Part shown: in pieces, positions 1,011-34,622 of the stretch | Layout: every line of letters starts with the position of its first letter | Position numbering within the stretch: position 1 is the stretch's first letter | Assembly: GCF_004010195.1 (NCBI RefSeq) | Contig: NC_057718.1 | Coordinates: 72,005,271 to 72,039,892, forward strand | Origin: Chiloscyllium plagiosum | Taxonomy: Eukaryota | Reading direction: 5' to 3' | DNA length: 34,622 bases | Position numbers and translations under genes: made by a program | The notes under the pieces: generated by a model | Seen by the model: only the letters and a program-made list of their open reading frames with translations | Databases searched by the model: none | Told to the model about the DNA's origin: nothing

Positions 1011-1849
1011 ATGACAAAACACTGAAAAGGATCAATACGTGGAGCTCCCGCCAGAGGCATCTAATTCAGGCACGGCCGTGACTGCGGCTCCCCCTACCAA
1101 TTCGATGGACCCAATTCGATGTCGCACAGCTCACAAAGTTGTGTGAAAAGCTTGAAGACAAGATCAAAGAAAAGTTTAACAGTAAGTTGGACTCGCTCTC
1201 TACCGTAATACAAAAACATGATCAGCAGCTTGAAAACCTCGGGAAGAGAGCAGATGAGGCCAGGCGCTGAACCGCAATGGCAGAGACTGCGATTGATTCA
1301 TCATAAGATCAGATCCGAGCCCTTGAAATACAGGTACGTAATTCAATTGATCAAGTTGACGATCTCGACAGCAGGGGCAGGAGGAAAAATGCCCTTATCG
1401 TCAGTCTACTCGAGGGAACGGAAACCAGTGGAACTTTTCAAGAACTGGCAGCTGCAATTCCTCAACATAGAAGTCGAAATGGGTGGGTGAAAATTGAAAG
1501 AGCACACCGGGTTATGGCACGCAGGTCAGGTTTGTACCAGTGCCCTGCCCTATCTTCGTGCGGTTTCACAGCTCCAGGGACAAACAAAGAATCATGGAAA
1601 CCTCCAGAACCGGGGAAAGAGCCGAAGGCTTTGGCTCACGAGGGCTTCAGGATCATGTTTTTCCAGGACTTCTCGGTGGTAGTGATCCGGAAAATAAATC
1701 CTTTGAAGGATATCGAGAAAAGATTAAGGGAACTCGGGATCCAACACTATTCAAGGTACATAGCAGTGTTTTGGTTTGCTTTCAATGGATCTGCACATCC
1801 ATTCAATTCTCTACAGAAAGCAAAAACATTTGTGGACGCTTTAAATTAG
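1011..1849 (+). pseudogene. L1 ORF1p (coiled-coil/RRM/CTD), frameshifted
   Basis: Fragments 'KIERAHRV', 'RIMFFQDFS', 'KRLRELGI' are L1 ORF1 motifs spread over several frames and parallel to L1 copy B. Confidence 0.85.
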
Positions 1850-12624: not shown

Positions 12625-12717
12625 TGAGGATCTAAAATCTGGATTTAGACTGTTGTCAGGAGCAACCATTTAATGCATGCTTTTACTAACTACAAAATGG
12701 CTTCTTAATGCAAGTAA

Positions 12718-14362
12718 GGAGAGCCAGGAGGGGGCACGAGAAAGGCTTGGCAGAACGGATTAGGGAGAACACAAAGGCAAAAACTATCAACAAAGCTCGC
12801 TTTTATTTTACATGAGTGATTGGGCTTGTGGGGACCCTCTTTCAATATGACCAGATTTGTCCTCGGCCGCTTTGGGAAACGAGAAATGCAATTGCATCGC
12901 CACTTGCGAAGATCTTTGCATCCTCGCTCTCCACTGGAGTCGTATCTGAGGACTGGAAAGAGGCAAATGTAATTCCTCTCTTCAAGAAAGGAAATAGGGA
13001 AATCCCCAGTAATTACAAACCAGTAAGTCTCACATCTGTCGTCTGCAAGGTGTTAGATAGGATTCTGAGGGATAGGATTTATGACCATCTGGAAGAGCAC
13101 GGCTTGACTAAATGCAGTCAACACAGCTTTGTGAGGGGCAGGTCATGCCTCACAAACCTTATCGAGTTCTTTGAGGATGTGACTAGAAAAGTTGATGAGG
13201 GTCGAGCTGTGGATGTGGTGTATATGGACTTCAGCAAGGCATTTGATAAGGTTCCCCATGGTAGGCTCATTCAGAAGGTCAGGAGGAATGGAATACAGGG
13301 GAACTTAGCTGTCTGGATACAGAATTGGCTGGCCAACAGAAGACAGCGAGTGGTAGTAGAAGGAAAATATTCTGCCTGGAAGTCTGTATTGAGTGGTGTT
13401 ACACAGGGCTCTGTCCTTGGGCCTCTATTGTTTGTAATTTTTATTAATGACTTGGATGAGGGGATTGAAGAATGGGTCAGCAAGTTTGCAGATAACACAA
13501 AGGTTGGAGGTGTCGTTGACAGTATAGAGGGCTGTTGTAGGCTGCAGCGGGACATTGACAGGATGCAGAGATGGGCTGAGAGGTGGTAGATGGAGTTCAA
13601 CCTGGATAAATGCGAGGTGATGCATTTTGGAAGGTCGAATTTGAAAGCTAAGTACAGGATTAAGGATAGGATTCTTGGCAGTGTGGAGGAACAGAGGGAT
13701 CTTGATGTGCATGTACATAGATCCCTTAAAATGGCCACCCAAGTGGATAGGGTTAAGAATTCATATAGTGTTTTGGCTTTCATTAACAGGGGGATTGAGT
13801 TTAAGACTCGTGAGATCTTGTTGCAGCTCTATAAAACTTTGGTTAGACTGCACTTGGAATACTGTGTCCAGTTCTGGTTGTCCTATTAAAGGAAAGATGT
13901 GGATGCTTTGAAGAGGGTTCAGAGGAGGTTTACCAGGATGCTGCCTGGACTGGAGGGCTTATCTTATGAACAGAGGTTGACTGAGCTCGAACTTTTTTCA
14001 TTGGAGAAAAGGAGGAGGAGAGGGGACCTAATTGAGGTATACAAGATAATGAGACGCATAGATAGAGTCGATAGGCACAGACTTATTTCCCAGAGCAGAA
14101 ATGCCTAACACGAGGGGTCATAGTTTTAAGCTGGTTGGAGGAAAGTATAGGGGGGATGTCAGAGGCGGGTTCTTTACACAGAGAGTTGTGAGAGCATGGA
14201 ATGCGTTGCCAGCAGCAGTTGTGGAAGCAAGGTCATTGGGGACATTTAAGAGACTATTGGACATGCATATGGTCACAGAAATTTGAGGGTGCATACATGA
14301 GGATCAGTGGTCAGCACAACATCGTGGGGTTGAAGGGCCTGTTCTGTGCTGTACTGTTCTAT
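12718..14362 (+). mobile_element. 5'-truncated CR1 (family D) inserted in the 5' LTR
   Basis: RT ORFs 12816-13589, 13590-13889, 13899-14286. TSD GTAA (12714-12717 / 14363-14366), confirmed against the uninterrupted 3' LTR. Confidence 0.92.
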
Positions 14363-14501
14363 GTAACATAAAATATCATAACAAAATGGCTTCTAGGAGC
14401 AATGGCATCTAACTCTACTGAAAACTGCATCCCTGAACTAATTGAAAGAGATTAGCAAACAATGCCCTGTTCATAGTGTGAATTAACTAAGCAAGATATG
14501 A

Positions 14502-14814
14502 TGATATGATGATTAGATTAGATTCCCTACAGTGTGGAAACAGGCCCTTCGGCCCAACAAGTCCACACCGACCCTCTGAAGAGCAACCCACCCAGACCCA
14601 TTCCCCTACATTTATCCCTGCACCTAGCACTACAGACAATTTAATATGGTCAATTCACCTAATCTGCACTTCTTTGGACTGTGGGAGGAAACCGGAGTAC
14701 CTGGAGGAAACCTCATGCAAACTCCACACAGACAGTTGCACGAGGCCGGAATTGAACCCAGGCCCCTGGCGCTGTGCGGCAGCAGTGCTAACCACTGAGC
14801 CACTGTGGAAGCCC
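14502..14814 (-). mobile_element. tRNA-derived SINE inserted in the 5' LTR
   Basis: Reverse-complement SINE. TSD ATATGA (14496-14501 / 14816-14821). Confidence 0.9.
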
Positions 14815-15186
14815 TATATGACATTATTAAAGTATCCGAGCTGGCCTTGTAGACACAGGTGGAGAGAGATAAAAACGTGCAAACAAGTCAGTTCCCAGGA
14901 AAAATCACTGGCTTAATTTCATGCCTTTTTGTCATTTTATTTCATTTTATTGGATTAAGTTTGAAATTAAGGCTGTTCTGTTTGTTAAGAGACCTATAAA
15001 AGTTTCTTGTGTTTTAAGATTGTGCGCAGCTTTTCCAGAGTACACAGAGGTGCTTAACCCGTGTTGCTGGATAACCTATGCCTGGTGTCTTAATAAATTG
15101 TTAAAACTTGCTAAAACAGGCTAGTGTTTATTTCACCAATTGCGGAACCTGTGAGACCGACCCCCCCCCCCCCTTACAGGTTCATA

Positions 15187-15205
15187 TGGTGTCTGTGACT
15201 CTGAT
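15187..15205 (+). promoter_or_regulatory. Primer-binding site, tRNA-His-like
   Basis: TGGTGTCTGTGACTCTGAT, 2 nt after the LTR CA, vs the tRNA-His complement TGGTGCCGTGACTCGGAT (2 substitutions, 1 insertion). Confidence 0.75.
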
Positions 15206-15881: not shown

Positions 15882-16144
15882 ATGGGTAATATTGTATGTA
15901 TAAAATGTTTCCAGAGAAATCCGATAGCCTGCGGAAGCTTTTGGTGCCTTAAAAAAAGACATTAGGTGATGAGCAGTGGCCTCTAGCTGGCCCTAAAATG
16001 TATTCAATTGATTAAATCAGCCCAGCAATGATTTGGCAATTAATTAGACTGTGGCGGCAATTCTGTGACAAAAGCCACAAAGAATCAGTTTTGCACTCAT
16101 GTCAGGACACTACCACCAAATTGGAAATTGAATTTACTAAAAAT
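15882..16144 (+). pseudogene. gag: gag matrix remnant
   Basis: ATG-GGT-AAT (MGN, myristoylation-type start) ~700 nt after the PBS, then 'MFPEKSDSLRKL...KKTLGDEQWPLAG' resembling the WPxxG matrix motif. Frameshifted. Confidence 0.55.
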
Positions 16145-18069
16145 AGAACGTAGAACATAGAATAATACAGCACAAAACAGGACCTTTGGCTGTCGATGTT
16201 GCGCCAACCTGTGAACTATTCTATGCTCATCCCCCTGCACTAACCCATCATCATCCATGTGCTTATTCAAGGATGGTTTAAAACTCCATAATGTAGCTGA
16301 GTTAACCAAATTGGCAGGTAGAGCATTCCACGCCCTTACCACTCTGAGTGAAGAACCTGCACCTGACATCTGCCTTAAATCTATCACCCCTCAATTTGTA
16401 GTCCTGCCCCCTCGTACAAGCTGACATCTTCATCCTGGGAAAAAGACTTTCACTGTCTACCCTATCTAATCCTCTGATCATCTTGCATGTCTCTATCAAA
16501 TCCCCTCTTAGCTATCTTCTTTCCAATAAGAACATATCCAACTATCTTAGCCTTTCCTCATAACAGCCTACCTCCAGACCAAGCAACATCCTGGTAAATC
16601 TCCTCTGCACCTTTTCAAATACTTCCACATTGTTCCTGTAATGGGGCAACCAGAACTGTACACAATATTCCAAGTGCGGCCGCACTAGCGTATTGTATTG
16701 TTGCAGCATGGCATTGCGGCTCCAGAACTCAATTCCTCCACCAATGAAACCTAACACACTGTATGCCTTCTTAAGAGGACTATCAACCTGTGTGGCAGCT
16801 TTCATGGATCTATGTTCATGGACTCCAAGATCCTTCTGCACATCCACACTACCAAGAATCTTTCCATTGACCCAGTACTCTGCTTTCCTGTTATTCTTCC
16901 CAAAGTGAATAACCTCACATTTAGCTGCATTGAACTCCATTTGCAACCACTCAGCCCAGTTCTGCAGTTTATCCAAGTCTCCCTGCAACCTGTGACATTC
17001 TTCCACACTGTCTACTACTCCACCGACTTTAGTGTCACCTGCAAACTTACTAACCCATCCACCTTTGCCTGCAAAACAATCATTTATAAAAATGACAAAC
17101 AGCAGTGGTCCCAAAACAGATGTTTGCTGCACACCACTGGTAACCGGAATCCATGCTGAATATTTTCCATCAACCACCACTCACTGCCATCTTTCAGAAA
17201 GCCAGTTTCTAATCCAAACTGCTAAATCACCCTCAATCCCATGCCTCTGCATTTCTCCAGCAGTCTACCAAGTGGAACCTTATCAAAAGGCTTTACTGAA
17301 GTGAATGTACACAACGTCAACTGCTCTATCCTCATCTATATGCTTGCTCACCTTCTCAAAAAAACTCAGTTTTGTGAGACATGATCTACCCTTGACGAAA
17401 CCATGTTGACAATCTGAAATCAAATTGTTGCTTATGAGATTATCATAAATCATATCTCCTATAGTCCTTTCCTAAACCTTTTCTACAACAGAAGTAAGGC
17501 TCACTAGTCTATAATTACCTGGGTCATCTTTCCTGCCCTTCTTGAACAAGGGCACATTTGCAATCCTCCAGACATAGAGTCATAGAGATGTATAGCATGG
17601 AAACAGACCCTTCAGTCCAACCTGTCCATTCCGACCAGATATCTCAACCCAATCTAGTCCCACCTGTCAGCACCCGGCCCATATCCCTCCAAACCCTTCC
17701 TGTTCATGTACCCATCCAAATTAATCTTAAACATTGCAATTGTACAGCCTCCACCACATCCTCTGGCAGCTCATTCCATTCACATAGCACCCTCTGTGTG
17801 AAAGAATTGCCCCTTAGGTCTCTTTTATATCTTTTCCCTCTCACCCTAAACCTATGCCCTCTAGTTCTGGACTCCCCGACTCTAGGGAAAAGACTTTGTC
17901 TAGTTATCCTATCCATGCCCCTCATAATTTTGTAAACCTCTATGAAGTCATTCCTCAGACTCCATCGCTCGAGCGAAAACAGCCCCAGCCTGTTCAACCA
18001 CTCCCTATAGCTCAAATCCTCCAACCCTGGCAACATCCTTGTAAATCTTTTCTGAACCCTTTCAAGAAC

Positions 18070-18496: not shown

Positions 18497-19430
18497 ATGG
18501 GAGGTTAGGGCAGTTGCATGTTCCTCCTGCAGAACGTGGGAGGTAAGGGTCACCACTAGTGTCCCTGCTGACTACACCTGTGGCAAGTGCACCCAACGCC
18601 AGCTCCTCGAAAACCACGTCAGGGAACTGGAGCTGGAGCTGGATGAACTTCGGATCATTCGGGAGGTAGAGGGGGTTATTGAGAGGAGTTAAAGGGAGGT
18701 AGTCACTCCTAAGGTACAAGAAAAAGGCAAATGGGTTACAGTCAGGGGACGGAAAGGGAACCAGCAGGCAGTGCAGGGATCCCCTGTGGCCATTCCCCTC
18801 AACAATAAGTATACCGTTTTGGATACTGTTGGGGGGCACGACATACCAGGGGAAAGCAGTGGGGTACAGGGCTCTGGCACAGAGTCTGTCCATGCTGCTC
18901 AGAAGGGGAAGAGCAGCAGAGCAGTAGTCACTGGGGACTCCATAGTTAGGGGGACAGATAGGAGGTTTTGTGGGGATGAGAGACTCTCACAGTTGGTGTG
19001 TTGCCTCCCAGGTGCCAAGGTTCATGATGTCTCTGATCGTGTTTTTGGGATCCTTAAGGGGGAGTGGGAGCAGCACCAAGTCGTGGTCTACACGGGCACG
19101 AACAATATAGGTAGGAAGAGAGATGGGGATTTAAGGCAGAAATTCAGGGAGCTAGGATGGAAGCTTAGAGCTAGGACAAACAGAGTTGTTGTCTCTGGTT
19201 TGTTGCCTGTGCCACGTGCTAGTGAAGCAAGGAATAGGGAGAGAGAGGAGTTGAACACGTGACTATAGGGATGGTGCAGGAGGGAGGGTTTTGGATTCTT
19301 GGATAATTGGGACTCTTTCTGGGGTAGGTGGGACCTCTACAAGCAGGATGGACTTCATCTGAACCAGAGGGGTACCAATATCCTGGGGGGAGGGAAATTC
19401 ACTAAAGCTATTTAGGCAGGTTTAAACTAA
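18497..19430 (+). pseudogene. CR1 ORF1 (zinc finger/leucine zipper + SGNH esterase)
   Basis: 'AVACSSCRTWE...CGKCTQRQLLENHVRELELELDEL', 'GDSIVRG', 'GTNN', 'DGLHLN'. Confidence 0.9.
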
Positions 19431-22285
19431 TCCAGCAGGGAGATGGGAACCAAAATTGTAGTTCGAGTATAGAAAAGATTGAGAGTAGGGAGGTCCAAAA
19501 TCAAGTTTCAGGGACGCAAGATGGCACCGGCAAGCAAGAAGTTGGTTTGAAGTGTGTCTACTTCAATGCCAGGAGCATCCAAAATAAGGTGGGTGAACTT
19601 GCAGCATGGGTTGGTACCTGGGACTTCAATGTTGTGGCCATTTCGGAGACATGGTGAGAGCAGGGAGAGGAATGGTTGTTGCAGGTTTCAGGATTTAAAT
19701 GTTTCAGCAAGAACAGAGAAGATGGGAAAAGAGGGGAGGTGTGGCATTGTTGATCAAGGACAGAATTACAGTTGCAGAAAGAATGTTTGGGGACTCGTCA
19801 ACTGAGGTAGTATGGGCTGAAGTTAGAAACAGGAAAGGAGAGGTCACCCTGTTGGGAGTTTTCTATAGGCCTCCAAATAGTTCCAGAGATGTAGAGGAAA
19901 GGATAGCAAAGATCAATCTAGATAGGAGTGAGAGAGACAGGGTAGATGTCATGGGAGACTTCAACTTTCCAAATATTGACTGGGAAAACTATAGTACGAG
20001 TTTTTTAGATGGGTCAGTTTTTGTCCAGTGTGTGCAGGAGGGCTTCCTGACACAGTATGTAGACAGACCAACAAGGGGCGAAGCCACTTTAGATTTGGTA
20101 CTGTGTAATGAGCCCAGCCAGGTGTTAGACTTGGAAGTAGATGAGCACTTTGGTGATCACAATTCTGTTATGTTTATTTTAGTGATAGAAAGGGATAGGT
20201 GTATACCACTGGGCAAGAGTTACAGCTGGGGGAAAGGCAATTACGATGCAATTAGGCAAGATATAGGAAGCATAGGATGGGGAAGGAAACTGCAGGGGAT
20301 AAGCACATTAGAAATGTGGAGCTTATTCAAGGAAAAGCTACTGTCTGTCCTAGATGAGCATGTACCTGTCAGGCAGGGAGGAAGCTGTAGACTGCGGGAG
20401 CCATGGTTTTATGAAGGAAGTGGAATCTCTGGTCAAGAGGAAGAAGGCGGCTTATGTTAGGATGAGATGTGAAGGCTGAGTTAGGGCACTTGGGGGTTAC
20501 AAGGTAGCAAGGAAAGACCTGAAGAGAGAGCTCAGAAGAGCCAGGAGGAGACAGGAGAAGTTGTTGGCGGACAGGATCAGGGAAAACCATAAGGCTTTCT
20601 GCAGGTATTTAAGGAATAAAAGAATGACAACAGTAAGGTTAGGGCCAATCAAGGATAGTAATGGGAAGTTGTGTGTGGAGTCAGAGGAGATAGGGGAAGC
20701 ACTAAATCAATATTTTTCGACAGTATTCACTCTAGAAAGCGACAATGTTGTCGCAGAGATTACTGAGATACAGGCTACTAGACTAGGTGTGATTGAGATT
20801 CACAAGGAAGAGGTATGAGAAATCCTGCAGAGTTTGAAAATAGATAAGTCCCCTGGGCCGGATGGGATTTATCCTAGGATACTCTGGGAAGCCAGGGAGC
20901 AGATTGCTCAGCCTTTGGCATTGATCTTTAAATCGTCATTGACTACAGGAACAGTGCCAGAAAACTGGAGGATAGCAAATGTGGTTCCCCTGTTCAAGAA
21001 GGGGAGTAGAGACAATCCAGGTAATTATAGACCAGTGAGCCTTACTTCAGTTGTTGGTAAAGTGTTGGAAAAGGTTATAAGAGATAGGATTTATAATCAT
21101 CTCGAAAAGAATAATTTGATTAGGGATAGTCAGTACAGTTTTGTGAAGGGTAGGTCGTGCCTCACAAACCTTATTGAGTTCTTTGAGAAGGTGACCAAAG
21201 AGGTAAATGAGAGTAAACTAGTTGATGTGGTGTATATGGATTTCAGCAAGGCATTCGATAAGGCTCCCCACAAAATGGCTATTGTACAAAATGTGGAGGA
21301 ATGGGATTGTGGGAGATATAGCAGTTTGGATCAGTAATTGGCTTGCTGAAAGAAGACAGAGGGTGGTTGTTGATGGGAAATGTTCATCCTGGAGTCCAGT
21401 TACTAATGGTGTACCTCAAGGGTCGGTGTTGGGTCCATTGCTGTTCGTCATACCTGGATGAGGGCGTAGAAGGGTGGGTTAGTAAATTTGCAGACAACAC
21501 TAAGGTCAGTGGAGTTGTGGATAGTGACGAAGGATGTTGTAGGTTACAGAGAGACATAGATAAGCTGCAGAGCTGGGCTGAAAGGTGGCAAATGGAGTTT
21601 AATGCGGACAAATGTGAGGTGATTCACTTTGATCGGAGTAACCAGAATGCAAAGTACTGGGCTAATGGTAAGATTCTTGGTAGTGTTGATGAGCAGAGAG
21701 ATCTCGGTATCCAGGTACACAGATCCTTGAAAGTTGCCACCCAAGTTGACAGGGTTGTTAAGTGTTTTAGCTTTTATTAATAGAGGGATCGAGTTCCAGA
21801 ACCATGAGGTTATGCTACAGCTGTACAAAACTCTGGTGCGGTCGCACTTGGAGTATTGTGTACAGTTCTGGTCACCGCATTATAAGGAGGATGTGGAAAC
21901 TTTGGAAAGGGTGCAGAGGAGATTTACTAGGATGTTGCCTGGTATGGAGGGAAGGTCTTACGAGGAAAGGCTGAGGGACTTGAAGCTGTTTTTGTTAGAG
22001 AGGAAAAGGTTGAGAGGTGACTTAATACAGACATTTAAGATAATCAGAGGGTTAGATAGGGTGGACATGGAGAACCTTTTTCCAAGTATGGTGACAGCGA
22101 GCACAAGGGGGCATAGCTTTAAATTGAGGGGTGATAGATTTTGGACAGATGTCAGAGGTAGTTTCTTTACTCAGAGAGTAGTAAGGGTATGGAATACTTT
22201 GCCTGCAACGGTAGTAGATTCACCAATTTTAAGTACATTTAAGTCGTCATTGAACAATTATATGGACGTACATGGAATAGTATAG
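19431..22285 (+). pseudogene. CR1 ORF2 (APE endonuclease + RT)
   Basis: ORF-track fragments with [38 protein letters not shown]. Confidence 0.93.
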
Positions 22286-26000: not shown

Positions 26001-27326
26001 AAAGTTCCTTTTTAATCTTTTAGTCCACATCCAATTTAAAAATAAAAGGGCAAAAGGAACAGTTTAAGTTATGTCATTTCAAAACGTTAATTTACTTAAA
26101 AACAGCCTTAAGTGTTCTGAATGATGTGTCTTTGTCAAACTTTGTGAAACTGCCTTAACTATATTAGAACTATACCTGCAACTAGTTTATTTCACATGGG
26201 ACAGGCTTACAGCCATTCTCAAAGAGGGTGTTAATTTTGAAAAAAGAAATGCATAGCTTTAAAAGGAATTTGTTTTGTTGTATTTAGCAGCCATATTGTA
26301 TTAGCCCGAATCACAAAATCAAAATTAATTGGCAGGATCGTTGGTTTTATTCCTTTACCTGTCTCATTGCCTCATGGTTAATTTGAAGCATGGCTGCATT
26401 AATTTGTTGTTAACTATAGAATGGGAAGATACCTTACTGGCCAGTATAAGGAATTCTGCATGTGATTGTGGGATAGAGATATGTGTAGCAGATGCAACTC
26501 CCAAAAGCTGGGAGGTGACTGTGAATGGGTATATGAAAAATAAAACGGACATGAGAAACAGTGTGAGGCCACTAAGGTTGAGGAATATACAAATAGGGTT
26601 AAAGCAACAATGCTGTAAAATAAAGACTTAGGCTCGGGATTCTGAGTGGAATCTATGTCTGGCAATATGACCCTTTTTTTGAGAATGGGGGTTTTGTTCC
26701 TGGATACCCGCTGAGCCCCTAACATCTCCTGATTGTCCCCAGCACACCAGCCACTTATTACAAACCTCTCCTTCTTTTGAAAATGAAGCATCCAGTCTTC
26801 ATAGCCGATATCATGGTGATGAGTGGTCTGCACCATCCTAAACCAGGTCCCATCCCAGGAATTAGAGTAATGTTAATGAAGCATGCCCCTTACCGCAAGA
26901 CCAAACCTGCTCATTTTGCTCAATATGTCCAAGGGCGATACGAATATAAATGCAGTGAAATGCTGGGATTAGCCTGAAGACGAATGGCTTGTGTTACAGT
27001 ACTGAAAGATGTGACTCTCTCTTCGGAAGTGATATATAATTGAACAATAAACAAGAAGCTCAATTACCGTTATTTAACCCTATGCTTTTGCAATGTTTTC
27101 CAGCTGGAGTCACTGACATGATCCAGACCAACAATACAAACCAGTCCACGAGTTTCTAGTCACAAATGAGATGAGCGGTGGTTTTCTATTGGGATGGGCA
27201 GAACCATACTGAACCACAATGCAAGTTATAGGTAAAACAGATTATATCTAGTGCCCTCCCGATCCCAAATACCAAACGCCAGCCCTAATATGGTTGGTTG
27301 GAAACAGGATACCCACTAGAGGCGGA

Positions 27327-27447: not shown

Positions 27448-27682
27448 CCACTAGAGGCGGAACCTACCTCAGGTGCCCACCCGACAACCACTGCTGAGCA
27501 ACCTTTTCCTGAGGGGACCCTGAAAATGGGGATAGGCAGACCCCAGCATTTTACCTTTGAGACTGGGAACAAGACAGTAAAATCCCCCAGGGACAAATGG
27601 CTAGTCCTTGCTTTAACTTTTGTAATGTGGCCACTGGGGAGTGATGTGTCTTTAATGTTACCTTTGAGCTGACAAGGGGAAT

Positions 27683-28185
27683 CAACATGCTTTCGTCCTA
27701 GCAAAAGGAAAATCTACTAATATACACTGACTCTTCATTATGCTCTTAGTAGGATCCACAATTTTAGAGCCTTGTGGAAACATTGAAGATTTTTAATGCC
27801 CAAGGGGCAGCGTTATAGTACGGCTGTTTGTCCAATCAATCTGGCAACTATCAAGATGTTCGGCTCGTGCCAAGGAAACTGATACTGTTTCCAAAGTACT
27901 GGGCAAGTAGGTGCAGCTGCCAAGCAGGCAGCCTTACACCCCAAATTTCTCATGCCCAGCAAAACCTGGTCAGACACAGGATAAGAACGGGTATGCCAGA
28001 CCTGGGTAAGGTACAGAAATCACAGGGGAAGCCCCTGCAGAAGAGCACAAACTATGGACTCAAATAGGGTACTTTCTCGATACTCAAACCAGAATGTGGG
28101 TGACCCCTAGCGGAAAGGTTTGTGTTCCTTCTTTGCTGCTGCCTATTTTAATTGATTTTGTGTATTTTGCATACACATGGACAAT
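27683..28185 (+). pseudogene. pol: pol remnant: RNase H C-terminal half and integrase N-terminal region
   Basis: Across frameshifts: 'HAFVLAKGKSTNIYTDS.YALS.IHNF.ALWKH', 'LATIKCSAR..ETDTVSK', 'AAAKQAA', 'APAEEHKLW..IG...MWVTPSGKVCVP.LLL'. Confidence 0.85.
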
Positions 28186-28589: not shown

Positions 28590-28720
28590 GTGGACACTCT
28601 GCAGCCTCCAACCTCATTGGGAAGGACCCTTCCAGGTCCTCCTCATCACCTCAACTGCTGCTAAGGTCGCCGAACGTTCTGCCTGGGTTCATCTCCATCA
28701 TTGCAAGTTCATCAGACGAG
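28590..28720 (+). pseudogene. pol: Integrase C-terminal (GPY/F) domain
   Basis: 'LQPHWEGPFQVLLITSTAAKVAERSAWVHLHHCK' matches the gamma/epsilon-retroviral IN C-terminus pattern. Confidence 0.9.
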
Positions 28721-28728
28721 CCCCTTGC

Positions 28729-28746
28729 AAGGGGGGAGATGAAGAT
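28729..28746 (+). promoter_or_regulatory. Central polypurine tract (copy of the 3' PPT/LTR junction)
   Basis: AAGGGGGGAGATGAaGAT vs AAGGGGGGAGATGAgGAT at 30567-30584 (17/18). Confidence 0.6.
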
Positions 28747-30390
28747 GATCAAACTTGTCATTGTGGACTTGCCATTGCCAGCATTAGTGCACAAGAAGGG
28801 ACAGTTTACCTGTGCGATCCTGAGCAACCAGAGAGTCTGTATCAATTATGCCGAAAAAAATACCATTGCATGCCAAGAGACTGAACATTACCAAGGATGA
28901 CTGTTGCAGTGGTAAACTGCATCAAAGAGATTGAAAAGCTCATTTACAGAACAACTCTAAATGGTCTTTACCCTGTCAAGGTGTTGTGTGCCAGTTTGAT
29001 TTCAGTTGTACTATGGACGATCCTGGTAAGCCTTGCCCCCATTCAAATAGATCACGTCGCAAAAAAGAAGATAGGGAAATGTTACCTTTCACTAACAATT
29101 TGTTTCTCCAAAGTGACAATAGAATATTTGGCAGGGATGAAATGGTCTGTTATGTCCTGACTTCAGCAAAAGACTCTTTGACCTCTTTTCTCCTCTTGAA
29201 TCCTAACGAAGGAGTATGGATTGCTACTAAAGCGTTCACTGGACATAGCATTTCTTTTTATTATTACCTATCCCCACCTGCTAGATGCTAATGGACTTCT
29301 TCCAATAAGTCCAGAGTAGCCTATCCAAATTGTTGCAATGGTAAAGGATGAAGGTACTTATGTTAATGTGACCAAGAATATTCCCTGCTCAATGATTAAA
29401 TGTGCCAGTCACGACTGCTCCCCTATCGGACCTCGCATCTCATGCGTATGCTGCGGGGAAGTGTGTGTCTTGGTTATCGCTGGTATTCAGACCCTGTGTG
29501 GAATGGATAATAGCACCCACCTTCATTTTAAGACCACTATTGGCACCCCTAAGACCATAAGACATAGGAGTGGAAGTAAGGCCATTCGGCCCATCGAGTC
29601 CACTCCGCCATTTAATCATGGTTGATGGGCATTTCAACATCTTCCCAATTGCAGGATGGAAGGAACCATTCTGGGACAATAACCATATCTCTTTCCAGAA
29701 AACTCATCGCTTTCTATTGAACAGTTTTCATCCCAAGTGCTCAGGCCATGGACTATCCATATGTTCCAGGAGTTCACAAAGCCAGGCCCGCATCTTATTG
29801 GGAAGCTCCCTCCAGCATTTATACTAAACCTGGTTACTTTTTTTAAACCAAGGCAAAGCAACCAATTTCCTTGTCCTTAATGAAATAGGTACTCCCCGCG
29901 CTGTAACTGTAGGAACACTTTTTCCGACCACGGGTTCCTGTCCAATTACCTGGTAACAGGATTGGGATTTCTCTGTCAAGTGTTCAATCTCACCTGAGTT
30001 CTGCGCAAATTGGAAGAATTCAAAGGCTTTGAGCACCACTAAGGCTCATTCTCTGGGGTATGCATTTCTTAGGTTTTTTTCTGTAGGAGGATCTGCAGGA
30101 ATTATTAGCCATCAAAACCGAAATTATCCCATGCTTTCAGAATTGCACCTATTTTCCCTATGAAACCGGTACGTCCTCGATTACATACTTGCAAAGGAAG
30201 ATGGAGTTTGCGCCATAGTCAAAGGCAAATGCATTATGGGGGTCACTAACCTCATCGAGACACAGGATGGGGAGATTGGGTTTTCAGTTCATGGTACAAC
30301 TGGCTGATCAATATGATTATGTATGATGCTATTGTTTTAGTTGGTCTTTTTGATGGCATTGTTAAGCATATGATTGCAAAATATTAACTT
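28739..30390 (+). pseudogene. env: env remnant (signal peptide, Cys-rich leader, SU, TM with ISD, MPER and transmembrane segment)
   Basis: 'LSELHLFSL*NRYVLDYILAKEDGVCAIVKGKC' (30134-30232) is the immunosuppressive-domain/CX6C region. 'GWGDWVFSSWYNWLINMI...IVLVGLF' follows. Fusion-peptide-like 'SLGYAFLRFFSVGGSAGII'. Confidence 0.85.
29551..29638 (-). mobile_element. Short CR1 3' tail inserted in env
   Basis: AAGACCATAAGACATAGGAG...AGGCCATTCGGCCC, the same tail type as 5765. Confidence 0.75.
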
Positions 30391-30565
30391 CTATTGACAG
30401 CATCGGTTCTACCCAGAAAATGCTTCTTCTCCAATCAGATGAAGATAAGGAGGTGCCATTGCCTACCCCTACTTCCTTCCTGGTAGAGGAAGAAGTGTGG
30501 CAGTTTCTGGCTTCCATTCGATTGGACTTTATGCCCTCACATCCTATGTGTGGTTATGAAATGAC

Positions 30566-30577
30566 AAAGGGGGGAGA
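30566..30577 (+). promoter_or_regulatory. 3' polypurine tract
   Basis: AAAGGGGGGAGA immediately before the 3' LTR TG. Confidence 0.9.
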
Positions 30578-31167
30578 TGAGGATCTAAAATCTGGATTTA
30601 GGTTGTTGTCAGGAGCAACCATTTAATGCACGATTTCACTAACTACAAAATGGTGTCTGAATGTAAGTAACATAAAATAACATAACAAAATTGCTTCTAG
30701 GAGCAATGGCATCTAACTCTGCCGAAAAAATGCATTCCTGAACTAATTGAAAAAGATTAGCAAACAACGCTCAGTTCATAGTATGAATTAAATAAGCAAG
30801 ATATGACATTATTAAAATATCTAAGCTGGCCTTGCAGACACAGGTGGAGAGAGATAAAAACTTGCAAACAAGTCAGTTCCCAGGAAAAGTCATTGGCTTA
30901 ATTTCATGTCTTTTTATCATTTTATTTCATTTTATTGGATTAATTAAGATTGTTCTATTTGTTAAGAGACCTATAAAAGTTGCTTGAGTTTTAAGATTGT
31001 GTGCAGCTTTTCCAGAGTACACAGAGGTGCTTAACCCCTACGTTGCTGGATAACCTATGTCTGGCATCGTAATAAATTGTTAAAACTTGCTGAAACAGGC
31101 CAAGCTGCTCATGTTTATTTAACCAATCGTGGAACTGAGAGGCCCCTTTTGGGGGACCAGATCTTCA
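30578..31167 (+). repeat. 3' LTR (590 bp, uninterrupted)
   Basis: TGAGGATCT...AGATCTTCA terminal inverted repeat, TATA ~30971, AATAAA 31071. Confidence 0.93.
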
Positions 31168-32010: not shown

Positions 32011-32197
32011 GACATGGGGATCTGAGATGGCGCGATCTGAGAAGATCACACTGCAGAGCTTCAAATCGCAGCAGGAGCAGGGCGGTCCTTTAACGCACCC
32101 AAACCAGGTCATCAGGATTTCTTGGGGCATTAGAAAGATTGTGGAGCCCCAAGAAACATTTAAAAATTGACTTCCCTGTATTTTCAGCTGTCCAGAA

Positions 32198-32969
32198 ATG
32201 CCTAAAAAGGGAGGAGGAGCATCTGAGGCCTGCAGCTCAGTCTGCAGCAGCCTCGGAGCCGATTACTCTCCAGGACCTGGTGAGCCAGCTTTTGAAATCT
32301 CGCGAGATGTTGGGGAAACAGATTGAAGAGAAGTTGGCTCCAGTCTCTCTCTCGCTGCAGAAGCATGAGCAGCAGCTGGGAGACCTGGAGAAGAGGACGG
32401 ATGAGATGGAGCACAGAGTCACAGTAGTGGAAGCTGATGCTAGTTCATTCAAGGAAGAGATCCAAGCCCTGAAGACGCAGGTTCATAATTTGCGTGACCA
32501 AGTGGATGATCTTGAAAACAGGGGCAGGAGAAAAAACATTCGGATCATCGGTCTGCCCGAGGGTAAGGAAGGTGAGCGGCCTGCGGAATTTGTTGAAGAT
32601 TGGCTTCTGAAATTCCTCGACTTGGAGACTGACACGAGAGGATTGAAGATAAAGAGGGCTCACCGGGTCGCAGCACGGAGGTCGGGTCTGGGTCAATGCC
32701 CTCGTCCTTTCCTGATGCGGTTCCATCATTACCGGGATAAGGAGAGAGTCATGGAGGCTTCCAGATTCCAGGGGAAGGATCCAAAGGCCCTAATTTACGA
32801 GGGGTCTAAGATCATGTTTTTTCAGGACTTTTCAGCGGCGGTGATCCAGAAACGAAAGTCGTATGATGGTATCAAGAGAAGATTGAAGGAGCTTGGGATC
32901 ACCTTAGGATCCATGCATCTCTTTGACACATCAGAGAAGGCAAGAGACTTTGTGGACAAACTAACCTAA
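32198..32969 (+). pseudogene. L1 ORF1p (N-terminal frameshift, small C-terminal deletion)
   Basis: Coiled coil, 'DDLENRGRRKNIRIIGLPEG', 'IKRAHRV', 'PRPFLMRF', 'IMFFQDFS'. Confidence 0.92.
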
Positions 32970-33574
32970 CTTAAACAATTGTAGTATGTATAAATATTGT
33001 TGCTTGGGTATGTGTTTATCATTCTGTAAAAGAAATGGAGGAAATCCGGTTGGAGCTTTGTTTTTCCCCTTTTTTTTCCTCTATTGATGATAATTTGATT
33101 CAAACTATGTTTGGCAGTGGTTAAGATGTACGTTTTAAATTTCTAAGTTAGGACATACCAAAGGATGGGTAGGGTAATTATTCCTTTTTTTTATAAAAAA
33201 TGTTTTTTTATTTATATTGATATTCTATGGGATGTTTATTCTTTTTAGCTTGTGCTTACGATGCAGCTCTAGCTGGGAGAAGTGAAGATGGTTGAGATGG
33301 TTTGATGCCTATTTATGGGCAGTTCGGGACGGGTAGTTGCCCCTCCGGGCAGGCGGTAAGTTCCCCTACTCAGCGCTATTGGCGCTTTATATGTTGGTTT
33401 GTTTTCTGGTTTTTGTTGTTTTTTATTTTTAATAATTTTGTATGTTTGTTAAATGTAGTGGTTTTAGTTTATGTAGTTTTTATATTTGGTGGACCATGCA
33501 ACACTAAGGCTCAGCAATTTGTGGTTCGGGTTCCTCCTCTCTGGAATTTAAATGGAATTGCAGAAGATTTGATA

Positions 33575-34622
33575 ATTGCTAATGATTTGATTAAATGGTG
33601 TACCTGAAATATCAAGGGAAGTCACTCACCAATTAAGAGGAAGAAGGTACTCTTGAATCTTAGAAAGGAGAAGATGGATATTGCTTTGTTACAGGAGACA
33701 CATTTGGATGACAAGGAGCATCTGAAATTACAGCAGAATGGCTTTGACCGAGTTCATTTTTCATCATTTAATATCAGAAGTAGGGGAGTGGCTATATTGG
33801 GAAGAAAAAATCTCTCATTTAAATTGTTGGAATGTGTTAAAGACACATACGGGAGGTTTGTAATTCTTAAAGCCTTGATAAATGGGGAAGAATATGGCAT
33901 TTTAGATGTTTATCCCAGCTCATCCTCTTAAATTCTTGGTAGATGCTTTTTCTAAACTGATAAGTCTCAAGCCTCGGCACATCTTTATAGGGGGAGATTT
34001 TAACTGCCTCATGGACCCCACAATAGACAGGTTGCCTAAAGGTCCCTCGATACCCTCTGCACAAACTGAACAGTTATTGGGTTTGTGTGGGGAATTAAGA
34101 TTGGTGGACGTCTGGAGGTGTCTCCACCCTACAGGTAGGGATTTCACGTTTTTCTCCAATCCACACAGATGTCACACGAGGATTGATTTTTTTTCTGACC
34201 CCTGCGGTAACCCTGGATCTGGTGGCATCCTGTACGATTGGTAATATTGCCATCTCTGATCATGCTCCAGTGTACCTCATGGTTAAAATTAAGGATGTTA
34301 CAGTGGATTCAAGGTACTGGCGAATGGACCCCTTTATTGTCATGGACAGCAAGTTTGTGGAGTATTTCTCTAGGGAATTTCAGGCATTCCTAGACATCAA
34401 CATATGAGCTATCAACTGAGCCTCTGTTCTCTGGGAAACTGCCAAAGCTTATGCCAGAGGGTTAGTTATTTCATATTCCACCAATAGGAAGCGGCAGAAG
34501 GGTGAGCAGCAACGTCTCCTTGAAGCACGGTTGGAGGCAGCCAAGGAGGCCTATTTCAGACCCTCGTCGGTCAAACGACAGAGGATTACGGCACTGCGGT
34601 CTGCACTAAATTCCATGCTCAC
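33575..34622 (+). pseudogene. L1 ORF2 APE endonuclease, disrupted
   Basis: 'T*NIKG', 'IALLQETHL', 'SRGVAIL', 'GGDFN', 'TRIDFF', 'ISDHAPV'. Confidence 0.93.

What the first reader, a model, noticed from the sequence alone, without database searches (positions are those of the whole stretch)
29975..30390. TM subunit of the internal-fusion-loop, filovirus/reptarenavirus-like type, with CX6C instead of CX6CC
Seen in one frame: VK(C, TGT possibly from CGT=R)|SISPEFCANWK...SLGYAFLRFFSVGGSAGIISHQNRNY / LSELHLFSL*NRYVLDYILAKEDGVCAIVKGKCIMG, then a Trp-rich MPER and TM after a frameshift. The hydrophobic peptide starts ~20 residues after the putative cleavage site and is preceded by a Cys. Established: this layout typifies Ebola GP2 and ASLV TM. 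From memory, ELHLFSLxNR parallels Ebola ELRTFSILNR, and GVCAIVKG parallels reptarenavirus GP2 GLCNVVKG. Loss of the third Cys fits the missing SU CXXC. Part of heptad repeat 1 appears deleted. Inference: a shark ERV env relevant to glycoprotein exchange between retroviruses and negative-strand RNA viruses.
Basis: partly seen in the sequence, partly recalled or inferred. Interest (0 to 1): 0.75.

Follow-up and report, generated by a model that had tools for sequence, protein, structure and literature searches.

The report
Ebola-like envelope fossil in a shark
This is a broken envelope gene of an old shark retrovirus whose fusion subunit is more like Ebola and Marburg virus GP2 than like any solved retroviral one, a kinship likely already published for shark and skate retroviruses, and the whole family lacks the cysteine that normally ties the two envelope halves together, so the halves are predicted to be held without that bond.

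Summary
Observation confirmed. At 29984-30250 one frame encodes a decayed retroviral TM: polar N-terminus, Cys at +7, hydrophobic stretch from +24, an ISD with a stop codon, then CX6C-Ile. It lies after a class I integrase tail and before a PPT and LTR. Intact shark, ray and skate relatives show that the layout is family-wide. Both loop cysteines are present in 14 of 16 aligned relatives, and 20 of 20 that keep the motif have CX6C, never CX6CC. The SU site has one Cys, not CXXC. This copy has lost about 20 residues holding the loop-closing Cys and HR1 start, and most of HR2. The family scores highest against filovirus GP2 (core constructs 52-58 bits, reptarenavirus 45, syncytin-2 28, ASLV 22). 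That kinship is in print: Nino Barreat and Katzourakis 2024 place cartilaginous-fish ERV ectodomains sister to Ebola/Marburg GP2. What I did not find in print is the anatomy: a filovirus-type internal loop and ISD without the inter-subunit cysteine, implying non-covalent SU-TM association (inferred). No tree with outgroups could be built, and the structure models failed.

The parts
12625..15183 (+). Upstream LTR of the same family, in three pieces (12625-12717, 14360-14501, 14816-~15160) split by LINE and SINE insertions; likely the 5' LTR
   Evidence: blastn to the downstream LTR; 47 differences in 556 columns, K2P 0.090, pieces aligned separately
15186..15203 (+). Primer-binding-site-like 18-mer starting TGG right after the upstream LTR; resembles a tRNA-His 3' end (recalled, not tested)
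   Evidence: sequence
15882..16150 (+). gag-like start (Met-Gly), broken; inferred from position only
   Evidence: translation; no Pfam hit
27640..28180 (+). Possible RNase H and integrase N-terminal remnants, judged by eye
   Evidence: translations; no Pfam or PDB hit
28603..28707 (+). Integrase C-terminal domain of class I (gamma/epsilon-like) type
   Evidence: Pfam MLVIN_C E 9e-10, above the cut-off
28739..29045 (+). env start: signal-peptide-like stretch and a Cys-rich N-terminal extra domain shared with some relatives (P0001, P0015, P0023/P0033), frameshifted
   Evidence: tblastn, alignment
29049..29066 (+). Extra basic cluster upstream of the SU core; a possible second cleavage site (inferred)
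   Evidence: similar basic clusters in P0022 and P0023
29094..29159 (+). SU core start with a single Cys (C-Y-V-L) where a CXXC would be expected; homology to the CXXC strand is inferred
   Evidence: N-L-F and C-Y invariant in 7 of 7 rows; 0 of 14 relatives with this motif have CXXC there
29831..29983 (+). SU C-terminal end with a conserved Cys (29939-29941), one stop codon and a decayed SU/TM junction with no basic motif
   Evidence: the Cys is in 11 of the 14 rows that cover it
29984..30127 (+). TM N-terminal part: loop-opening Cys (30002-30004) and internal Gly-rich hydrophobic stretch (30053-30106), the predicted fusion loop
   Evidence: weak, non-significant alignment to the Marburg fusion loop
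30127..30133 (+). In-frame loss of about 20 residues that in relatives hold the loop-closing Cys, an N-glycan sequon and the start of HR1
   Evidence: alignment; other copies leave this sequence at 30127-30128 in 4 of 4 runs
30134..30250 (+). End of HR1, ISD (stop at 30161-30163), CX6C (30209-30232) followed by Ile
   Evidence: best PDB match Marburg GP2 6bp2, E 0.0015
30262..30626 (+). MPER and membrane anchor (to 30381, shifted frame) and cytoplasmic tail (third frame, reads through the PPT); most of HR2 is missing before it
   Evidence: tblastn with P0001, P0022, P0013; translations
30566..30577 (+). Polypurine tract
   Evidence: sequence
30578..31167 (+). 3' LTR, TG...CA, with short terminal inverted repeats
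   Evidence: sequence; homology to the upstream LTR

Best explanation
This is a dead copy of the env gene of a multi-copy shark endogenous retrovirus whose fusion subunit matches filovirus GP2 better than any solved retroviral subunit, likely belongs to the published cartilaginous-fish lineage related to GP2, and lacks the third cysteine family-wide, so SU and TM are predicted to be held together without a disulfide. In the intact virus the precursor would be cut at a basic site 7 residues before a TM cysteine. That Cys would pair with a second Cys 39-43 residues on, closing an internal Gly-rich hydrophobic loop that inserts into the target membrane. HR1 (with a glycan 'stutter'), the ISD, the CX6C chain reversal and HR2 would then fold into the class I six-helix bundle. 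TM has exactly four ectodomain cysteines, all accounted for by the two loops. The lone SU Cys that in ASLV and Ebola bonds to TM would instead pair within SU, most simply with the conserved Cys just before the cleavage site. Triggering would therefore not use CXXC isomerisation; receptor binding with low pH or proteolysis, as in ASLV and filoviruses, is the likelier route. Shown: motifs, their conservation, the similarity ranking, the breaks. Inferred: disulfide pairing, non-covalent association, cleavage enzyme, trigger, and identity with the published lineage. This copy cannot encode a working protein.
For: Relatives: 15 hits, of which the 7 named are all sharks or rays, plus skate and catshark. 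CX6C followed by I/M/V/T in 20 of 27 proteins, CX6CC in none; 7 lack or are broken in that region. Loop Cys pair in 14 of 16 rows each. TM ectodomain has 4 Cys, an internal hydrophobic peak and an N-x-T sequon after the closing Cys in 6 of 6 long Envs. P0001 aligns without gaps to filovirus GP2 from the loop-closing Cys through the chain reversal, the third Cys facing Ile (E 3e-16); syncytin-2 3e-7, CAS virus GP2 5e-7, ASLV TM 2e-3. Family profile against comparable post-fusion cores: filovirus 52-58 bits, CAS virus 45, syncytin-2 28, ASLV 22, MLV-type 22, HTLV-1 16. P0022 repeats the order at the top. Pfam Ebola-like_HR1-HR2 above the cut-off in 6 of 10 relatives. SU features are nearest to clusters bearing Avian_gp85 and TLV_coat (a lead only). 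Retroviral context. Published sister relation, PP 0.83, with 14 chondrichthyan loci in genera that overlap my hits, two of which have the same best hit 6BP2_B. Roles of the cysteines from passages of PMC3758190 and two Hotzel preprints.
Against: No tree with filovirus, ASLV, lizard or tarsier outgroups could be built; bit scores against a small PDB set are only a proxy, and the published support is modest (0.83). Sequence identity with the published loci was not tested. SU-core Cys count is even in only 3 of 6 long Envs; P0006, P0016 and P0018 have an extra Cys that forms a CXXC in mid-SU. The window itself has no Pfam env hit. The opening Cys and the loop do not align significantly to GP2. 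TM features in the ESM Atlas go to TLV_coat clusters, with no filovirus cluster shown. Two degraded relatives have Tyr for the closing Cys. Both AlphaFold models were unusable (pLDDT 43 and 38), so no disulfide geometry was seen.
Confidence: 0.75

Rival explanations
1. SU and TM are still covalently linked, by a rewired bond: the lone SU Cys pairs with one of the four TM cysteines, so that either the fusion loop or the chain-reversal loop is not closed before fusion.
For: The SU Cys at the strand that carries the inter-subunit bond elsewhere is invariant (7 of 7). SU-core Cys count is odd in 3 of 6. All other avian-gamma and filovirus-type proteins in the passages read are covalent.
Against: TM has exactly 4 Cys in 6 of 6, in the register of the two loops known from GP2. 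A conserved spare Cys exists at the SU C-terminus, and 3 of 6 SU cores are even.
Confidence: 0.17
2. The family is a basal avian-gamma (alpha-like) Env, and its closeness to filoviruses reflects shared ancestral features or sparse sampling rather than a sister relation.
For: Internal Cys-flanked peptide, HR1 glycan and lone SU Cys are all avian-gamma traits. SU features lean to Avian_gp85. Published PP is 0.83, and some published shark loci had Tapajos or CAS virus as best hit.
Against: ASLV TM scores 22 bits against 52-58 for filovirus cores of similar span. An independent Bayesian tree groups cartilaginous-fish ectodomains with Ebola/Marburg.
Confidence: 0.15
3. The exchange went the other way: a shark retrovirus took its env from a filovirus-like virus.
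For: Similarity alone gives no direction. Hotzel 2021 names a filovirus-like source of env as one possibility. Filoviruses keep the third Cys, so their form cannot descend directly from the extant CX6C form without regaining it.
Against: Fish filoviruses reportedly lack this ectodomain and the paper reads it as captured from retroelements. The family is spread across sharks, rays and skates in a normal env position, with an SU that looks retroviral.
Confidence: 0.08
4. CX6C and the odd layout are decay of an ordinary gamma-type Env in this one copy.
For: The copy is heavily broken, and on the 29-residue ISD stretch MLV p15E scores as well as anything.
Against: 0 of 20 relatives have CX6CC, including open reading frames of 561 and 646 residues; the internal loop is family-wide.
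Confidence: 0.02

Closest known systems
Filovirus-like ectodomains of cartilaginous-fish retroelements (Nino Barreat and Katzourakis 2024, PMC11521997)
   Same: Host group and genera (Chiloscyllium, Rhincodon, Leucoraja, Scyliorhinus), retroviral context, filovirus GP as best viral match, same top chain 6BP2_B for two of their loci.
   Different: The section, passages and supplements I read deal with the HR1-HR2 ectodomain only; no fusion loop, cysteine motif or SU is described (preprint: 'fusion' 0, 'cystein' 0). Whether this locus is among their 14 was not testable.
Filovirus GP2 (Ebola, Sudan, Marburg)
   Same: Ungapped alignment from the loop-closing Cys through the HR1 glycan, ISD and chain reversal; internal hydrophobic stretch after an early Cys.
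   Different: The third Cys is replaced by I/M/V/T; it is part of a retroviral env with a long cytoplasmic tail; no SU-GP1 sequence match was found; the loop sequence does not align significantly.
Avian gamma-type Env (ASLV TM; alpha-like lizard Mab-Env3/4)
   Same: Cys-flanked internal fusion peptide, HR1 glycan, ISD, lone SU Cys and no CXXC.
   Different: No CX6CC; much lower TM similarity (22 bits); class I integrase tail; a subgroup has an extra N-terminal domain.
Reptarenavirus GP2 (CAS virus)
   Same: Chain-reversal residues alike; 45 bits; Cys-flanked peptide and glycan per PMC3758190.
   Different: Lower score than filoviruses; different Cys spacing; three-Cys motif and no recognisable ISD.
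Anamniote gamma-type Env with CXnC (Chen et al. 2021 preprint, 10.1101/2021.11.23.469661)
   Same: Reports a CXnC subtype and Envs from 6 cartilaginous fish.
   Different: The text says the new Envs show no similarity to the avian type at the TM N-terminus; which lineages carry CXnC is in figures and supplements that I could not see.
Beta-type Env (betaretrovirus, lentivirus)
   Same: Two-Cys CXnC motif and predicted non-covalent SU-TM association.
   Different: Beta-type lacks an ISD and is confined to mammals in the papers read; here the ISD is clear and the sequence is of gamma/filovirus descent, so the likeness is convergent (inferred).

Membership tests
Endogenous retrovirus env | Position between integrase and PPT/3' LTR | tested here: met
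   MLVIN_C at 28603-28707; PPT and LTR
Endogenous retrovirus env | One provirus with paired LTRs and a target-site duplication | tested here: inconclusive
   LTR pair 8.5% apart, same orientation, PBS-like site; flanks match at 2 of 4 bases; non-viral DNA lies between
Gamma-type Env proper | CX6CC in TM | tested here: not met
   window CX6C-Ile; 0 of 20 relatives
Gamma-type Env proper | CXXC at the start of the SU core | tested here: not met
   0 of 14 relatives and not the window; 3 relatives have a CXXC elsewhere in SU
Gamma-type Env proper | N-terminal fusion peptide | tested here: not met
   hydropathy in 6 of 6 long Envs and the window
Gamma-type Env proper | ISD | tested here: met
   aligns to the ISD of filovirus GP2 and MLV p15E
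Avian gamma / filovirus type | Internal hydrophobic peptide flanked by two Cys | tested here: met
   14 of 16 relatives for each Cys; the closing Cys is deleted in this copy
Avian gamma / filovirus type | N-glycan sequon at the start of HR1 | tested here: met
   6 of 6 long Envs; deleted in this copy
Avian gamma / filovirus type | CX6CC with a third Cys for the SU-TM bond | tested here: not met
Avian gamma / filovirus type | Fusion-loop disulfide and covalent SU-TM link shown biochemically or structurally | not testable with these tools
   models unusable
Cartilaginous-fish filovirus-like ectodomain lineage (2024) | Chondrichthyan retroelement with filovirus GP as best viral match and the Ebola-like HR1-HR2 domain | tested here: met
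Cartilaginous-fish filovirus-like ectodomain lineage (2024) | Falls in the published clade in a tree, or matches a listed locus | not testable with these tools
   no outgroup or paper sequences obtainable; the alignment was not in the readable supplements
Beta-type Env | CXnC and no ISD | tested here: not met
   CXnC present but ISD clear

The most novel reading that the evidence does not exclude
Sharks and rays carry a distinct fourth kind of orthoretroviral Env: the closest retroviral kin of Ebola/Marburg GP, sharing the whole GP2 design including the fusion loop, that has traded the SU-TM disulfide for a staple between the two ends of SU. One subgroup has an R-x-V-x-R junction that looks more like an SKI-1/S1P site than a furin site, and another has a second basic site that would shed an N-terminal domain, recalling the cap removal that primes filovirus GP. 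If so, natural open frames in skates and sharks are a window on the ancestor of filovirus entry.
Probability: 0.3. Interest if true: 0.72.

Novelty: new variant of a known kind. Interest (0 to 1): 0.45.

Why it matters
Where filoviruses got GP is an old question, and the published shark link rests on a short ectodomain tree with PP 0.83. The shared loop-closing Cys, HR1 glycan and ungapped register extend that link to the fusion-loop architecture. The family also breaks the textbook rule that an ISD goes with CX6CC and a covalent SU-TM bond, so it is a natural test of the idea that the ISD exists to regulate that bond. The locus itself is a dead copy and adds little; the value lies in the family anatomy.

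Tried and rejected
Pfam on the window's env pieces: no env family. Word-index searches with the window TM and with alignment A3 in 'longer' mode: nothing, weak evidence only. No whole genome is held for this window. No relatives in viral or metagenome contigs. AlphaFold on alignments of 17 and 25 rows: pLDDT 43 and 38; Foldseek on the first gave no match at E 0.001, and its top rows (Ebola GP2) are sequence-driven and not counted. Family-only tree of 14 rows: the window falls in an unresolved group with P0001, P0002, P0003, P0004 and P0022 on a long branch, and has no outgroup. Laying contigs to test the codon after the second Cys across copies: inconclusive, since differences were listed only for 30215-30226 and 328 rows were hidden. 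Expression: no RNA holder listed; 2 reads under 90% alike in about 2% of one RNA run, no evidence either way. gag, RNase H and integrase N-terminal remnants are not confirmed by Pfam or PDB. Flank searches did not confirm that both flanks belong to one element. Earlier scan notes: none by words or sequence, one unrelated note nearby. Rejected: copy-specific loss of the third Cys; reptarenavirus as the closest relative; a non-retroviral EVE, given the integrase, PPT and LTR context.

Full report
Observation. Coordinates: putative TM start 29984, Cys 30002-30004, hydrophobic stretch 30053-30106, NRNY 30116-30127, ISD 30134-30208 with a stop at 30161-30163, CX6C 30209-30232 followed by Ile. The Trp-rich region and anchor follow in another frame at 30262-30381 and the tail in a third. 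A profile of 9 natural relatives finds only these pieces in the six frames of the window (55.1, 43.5 and 17.9 bits); 20 shuffles reach at most -0.2 bits.

Context. An MLV-type integrase C-terminal domain ends just before env (Pfam E 9e-10). A polypurine tract (30566-30577) and an LTR (30578-31167) follow it. A second LTR of the family lies upstream in three pieces at 12.6-15.2 kb, followed by a PBS-like site and a gag-like start (gag not confirmed). The LTRs differ at 47 of 556 columns (K2P 0.090). One provirus is likely but not proven: the flanks agree at only 2 of 4 bases, paralogues are about as divergent, and LINEs, AT-rich DNA and a Kelch-like remnant lie between. The family is multi-copy: 444, 613, 593 and 392 contigs were laid on 1 kb in 4 runs of 3 coded organisms, most under 95% alike.

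Relatives. A full scan of 1.84 billion representatives gave 15 proteins at E up to 0.001. The 7 with names are from Heterodontus (2), Mobula, Pristiophorus, Rhincodon, Chiloscyllium and Hemiscyllium; 8 are unnamed. A second search added Leucoraja (three open 561-residue copies) and Scyliorhinus. The Chiloscyllium protein is 59% identical to the window's tail over 49 residues, so the host is likely a carpet shark (inference).

Anatomy of the family. Among 16 relatives aligned with the window, 14 have the opening Cys (one has a gap, one does not reach it) and 14 have a closing Cys three residues after the NRNY-like motif (two degraded ones have Tyr). In 6 long Envs the opening Cys is 7 residues after the junction arginine, 39-43 residues lie between the two Cys, the first 11 residues are not hydrophobic, the peak is inside the loop, an N-x-T sequon follows the closing Cys, and the ectodomain has exactly 4 Cys (the script counts the arginine as position 1). 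Of 27 proteins, 20 show the chain-reversal motif and all 20 are CX6C followed by I, M, V or T; 7 lack or are broken in the region; several of the 20 are near-duplicates, about 14 being distinct. At the SU core start, 14 proteins and the window have a single Cys and none has CXXC. Against a clean picture: SU-core Cys counts are even in 3 of 6 and odd in 3 of 6, the odd ones carrying a mid-SU CXXC.

This copy. It lacks about 20 residues at 30127-30133 (closing Cys, sequon, start of HR1). Other copies leave this sequence at 30127-30128 in all 4 runs (11, 14, 14 and 6 records), so the loss is not family-wide. Most of HR2 is gone as well, there is no basic motif at the junction, and SU is frameshifted several times. 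It is a pseudogene.

Affinity. The window's best solved match is Marburg GP2 (E 0.0015). Intact P0001 matches filovirus GP at E 3e-16 and aligns without gaps from the closing Cys through the chain reversal, with Ile facing the third Cys; syncytin-2 follows at 3e-7, CAS virus GP2 at 5e-7 and ASLV TM at 2e-3. With the family profile, post-fusion core constructs of similar span score 52-58 bits (filoviruses), 45 (CAS virus), 28 (syncytin-2), 22 (ASLV, MLV-type) and 16 (HTLV-1). P0022 also ranks filoviruses first, but puts syncytin-2 and CAS virus level. Pfam Ebola-like_HR1-HR2 passes its cut-off in 6 of 10 relatives. ESM Atlas features place the SU near Avian_gp85 and TLV_coat clusters and the TM near TLV_coat clusters (leads only). 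No tree with outgroups was possible, and the structure models failed.

Mechanism. Established from passages read: in gamma-type Env the second Cys of CXXC, and in ASLV and Ebola a lone N-terminal Cys, bonds to the third Cys of CXnCC; avian and filovirus fusion peptides sit in a disulfide loop; beta-type Env has CXnC and is non-covalent. Inferred here: the four TM cysteines close the fusion loop and the chain reversal, none is left for SU, so SU and TM associate non-covalently, and the lone SU Cys likely pairs with the conserved Cys before the cleavage site (11 of 14 rows). The main rival, a rewired covalent link, I put at about 0.17. Junctions differ within the family: R-x-K/R-R in P0002, P0004, P0012 and P0022, but R-x-V-x-R in P0001 and P0005-P0009, which fits an SKI-1/S1P-type motif as I recall it (RRLL is such a site). 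This is untested.

What is known. Nino Barreat and Katzourakis 2024 (PMC11521997; abstract, passages, section 11, supplementary PDF, part 5 of the table) report filovirus-like ectodomains in retroelements of cartilaginous fish, sister to ebola-, cueva-, marburg- and dianloviruses (PP 0.83), and list 14 loci; two Leucoraja loci have 6BP2_B as best hit, the chain that tops. Their alignment was not found in the readable supplements; four files were too large and one was a scan, and these may show the motifs. The preprint version contains neither 'fusion' nor 'cystein'. Chen et al. 2021 (preprint, parts 1-3 of 6 and passages) note a CXnC subtype and Envs from 6 cartilaginous fish, but say that none resembles the avian type at the TM N-terminus; their figures and supplements could not be seen. 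Hogan and Johnson 2023 (passages and section 3.5) call the co-occurrence of ISD and CX6CC invariant. Henzy and Johnson 2013 (passages) had not seen the Cys-flanked peptide outside birds. Passages of three Hotzel preprints were read; the two searched for 'shark' and 'skate' contain neither. PMC13568524 does not mention sharks. Frog XtERV-S has an internal peptide without flanking Cys and keeps CX6CC.

Verdict. The evolutionary link is published, so the lineage is known and this locus is a poor copy of it. The family-wide pairing of a filovirus-type loop and ISD with a two-Cys motif fails the defining test of the gamma, avian-gamma and beta types alike and appears undescribed, which makes it a new variant of a known kind. 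Interest 0.45.

Noticed in passing
window 29049-29066; P0022, P0023: A second basic cluster precedes the SU core in the window, the skate and the catshark proteins. In the window and P0023 it follows a Cys-rich N-terminal domain (shared with P0001 and P0015) that other members lack; it may be a second cleavage site.
   Followed up: partly
P0001, P0005-P0009 junction: The SU/TM junction is R-x-V-x-R rather than R-x-K/R-R; it resembles an SKI-1/S1P site (motif recalled).
   Followed up: no
window ~26860-27000 (+): A decayed Kelch-repeat-like peptide (weak matches to designed Kelch proteins and KLHL2/KEAP1) lies between the two LTRs: a host gene remnant, a retrocopy or a captured piece.
   Followed up: partly
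P0022, P0024, P0025 (Leucoraja erinacea): Three near-identical open 561-residue Envs annotated as uncharacterised: a young or still expanding lineage in the little skate.
   Followed up: partly
P0023 and P0033 (Scyliorhinus torazame): Several catshark copies share one large internal loss covering the SU end, the junction and the fusion loop, and gene models fuse one to an LDLRAD3 transcript; either a copied defective form or an annotation artefact.
   Followed up: no
window 15140-15185 against 31140-31167: The last ~30 bases of the two LTRs do not align; the upstream one has a C-run there.
   Followed up: no
window 30530-30626: The env tail frame reads through the PPT into the 3' LTR, as P0001 and P0003 also appear to do.
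   Followed up: no
window 1307-1849, 32094-34407 and 18693-22285: Near-complete LINE copies of two kinds (L1/Tx1-like ORF1 plus endonuclease, by eye; an esterase-bearing CR1/L2-like element with Pfam GDSL, endonuclease and RT hits) and many SINEs, several inserted inside the provirus.
   Followed up: no
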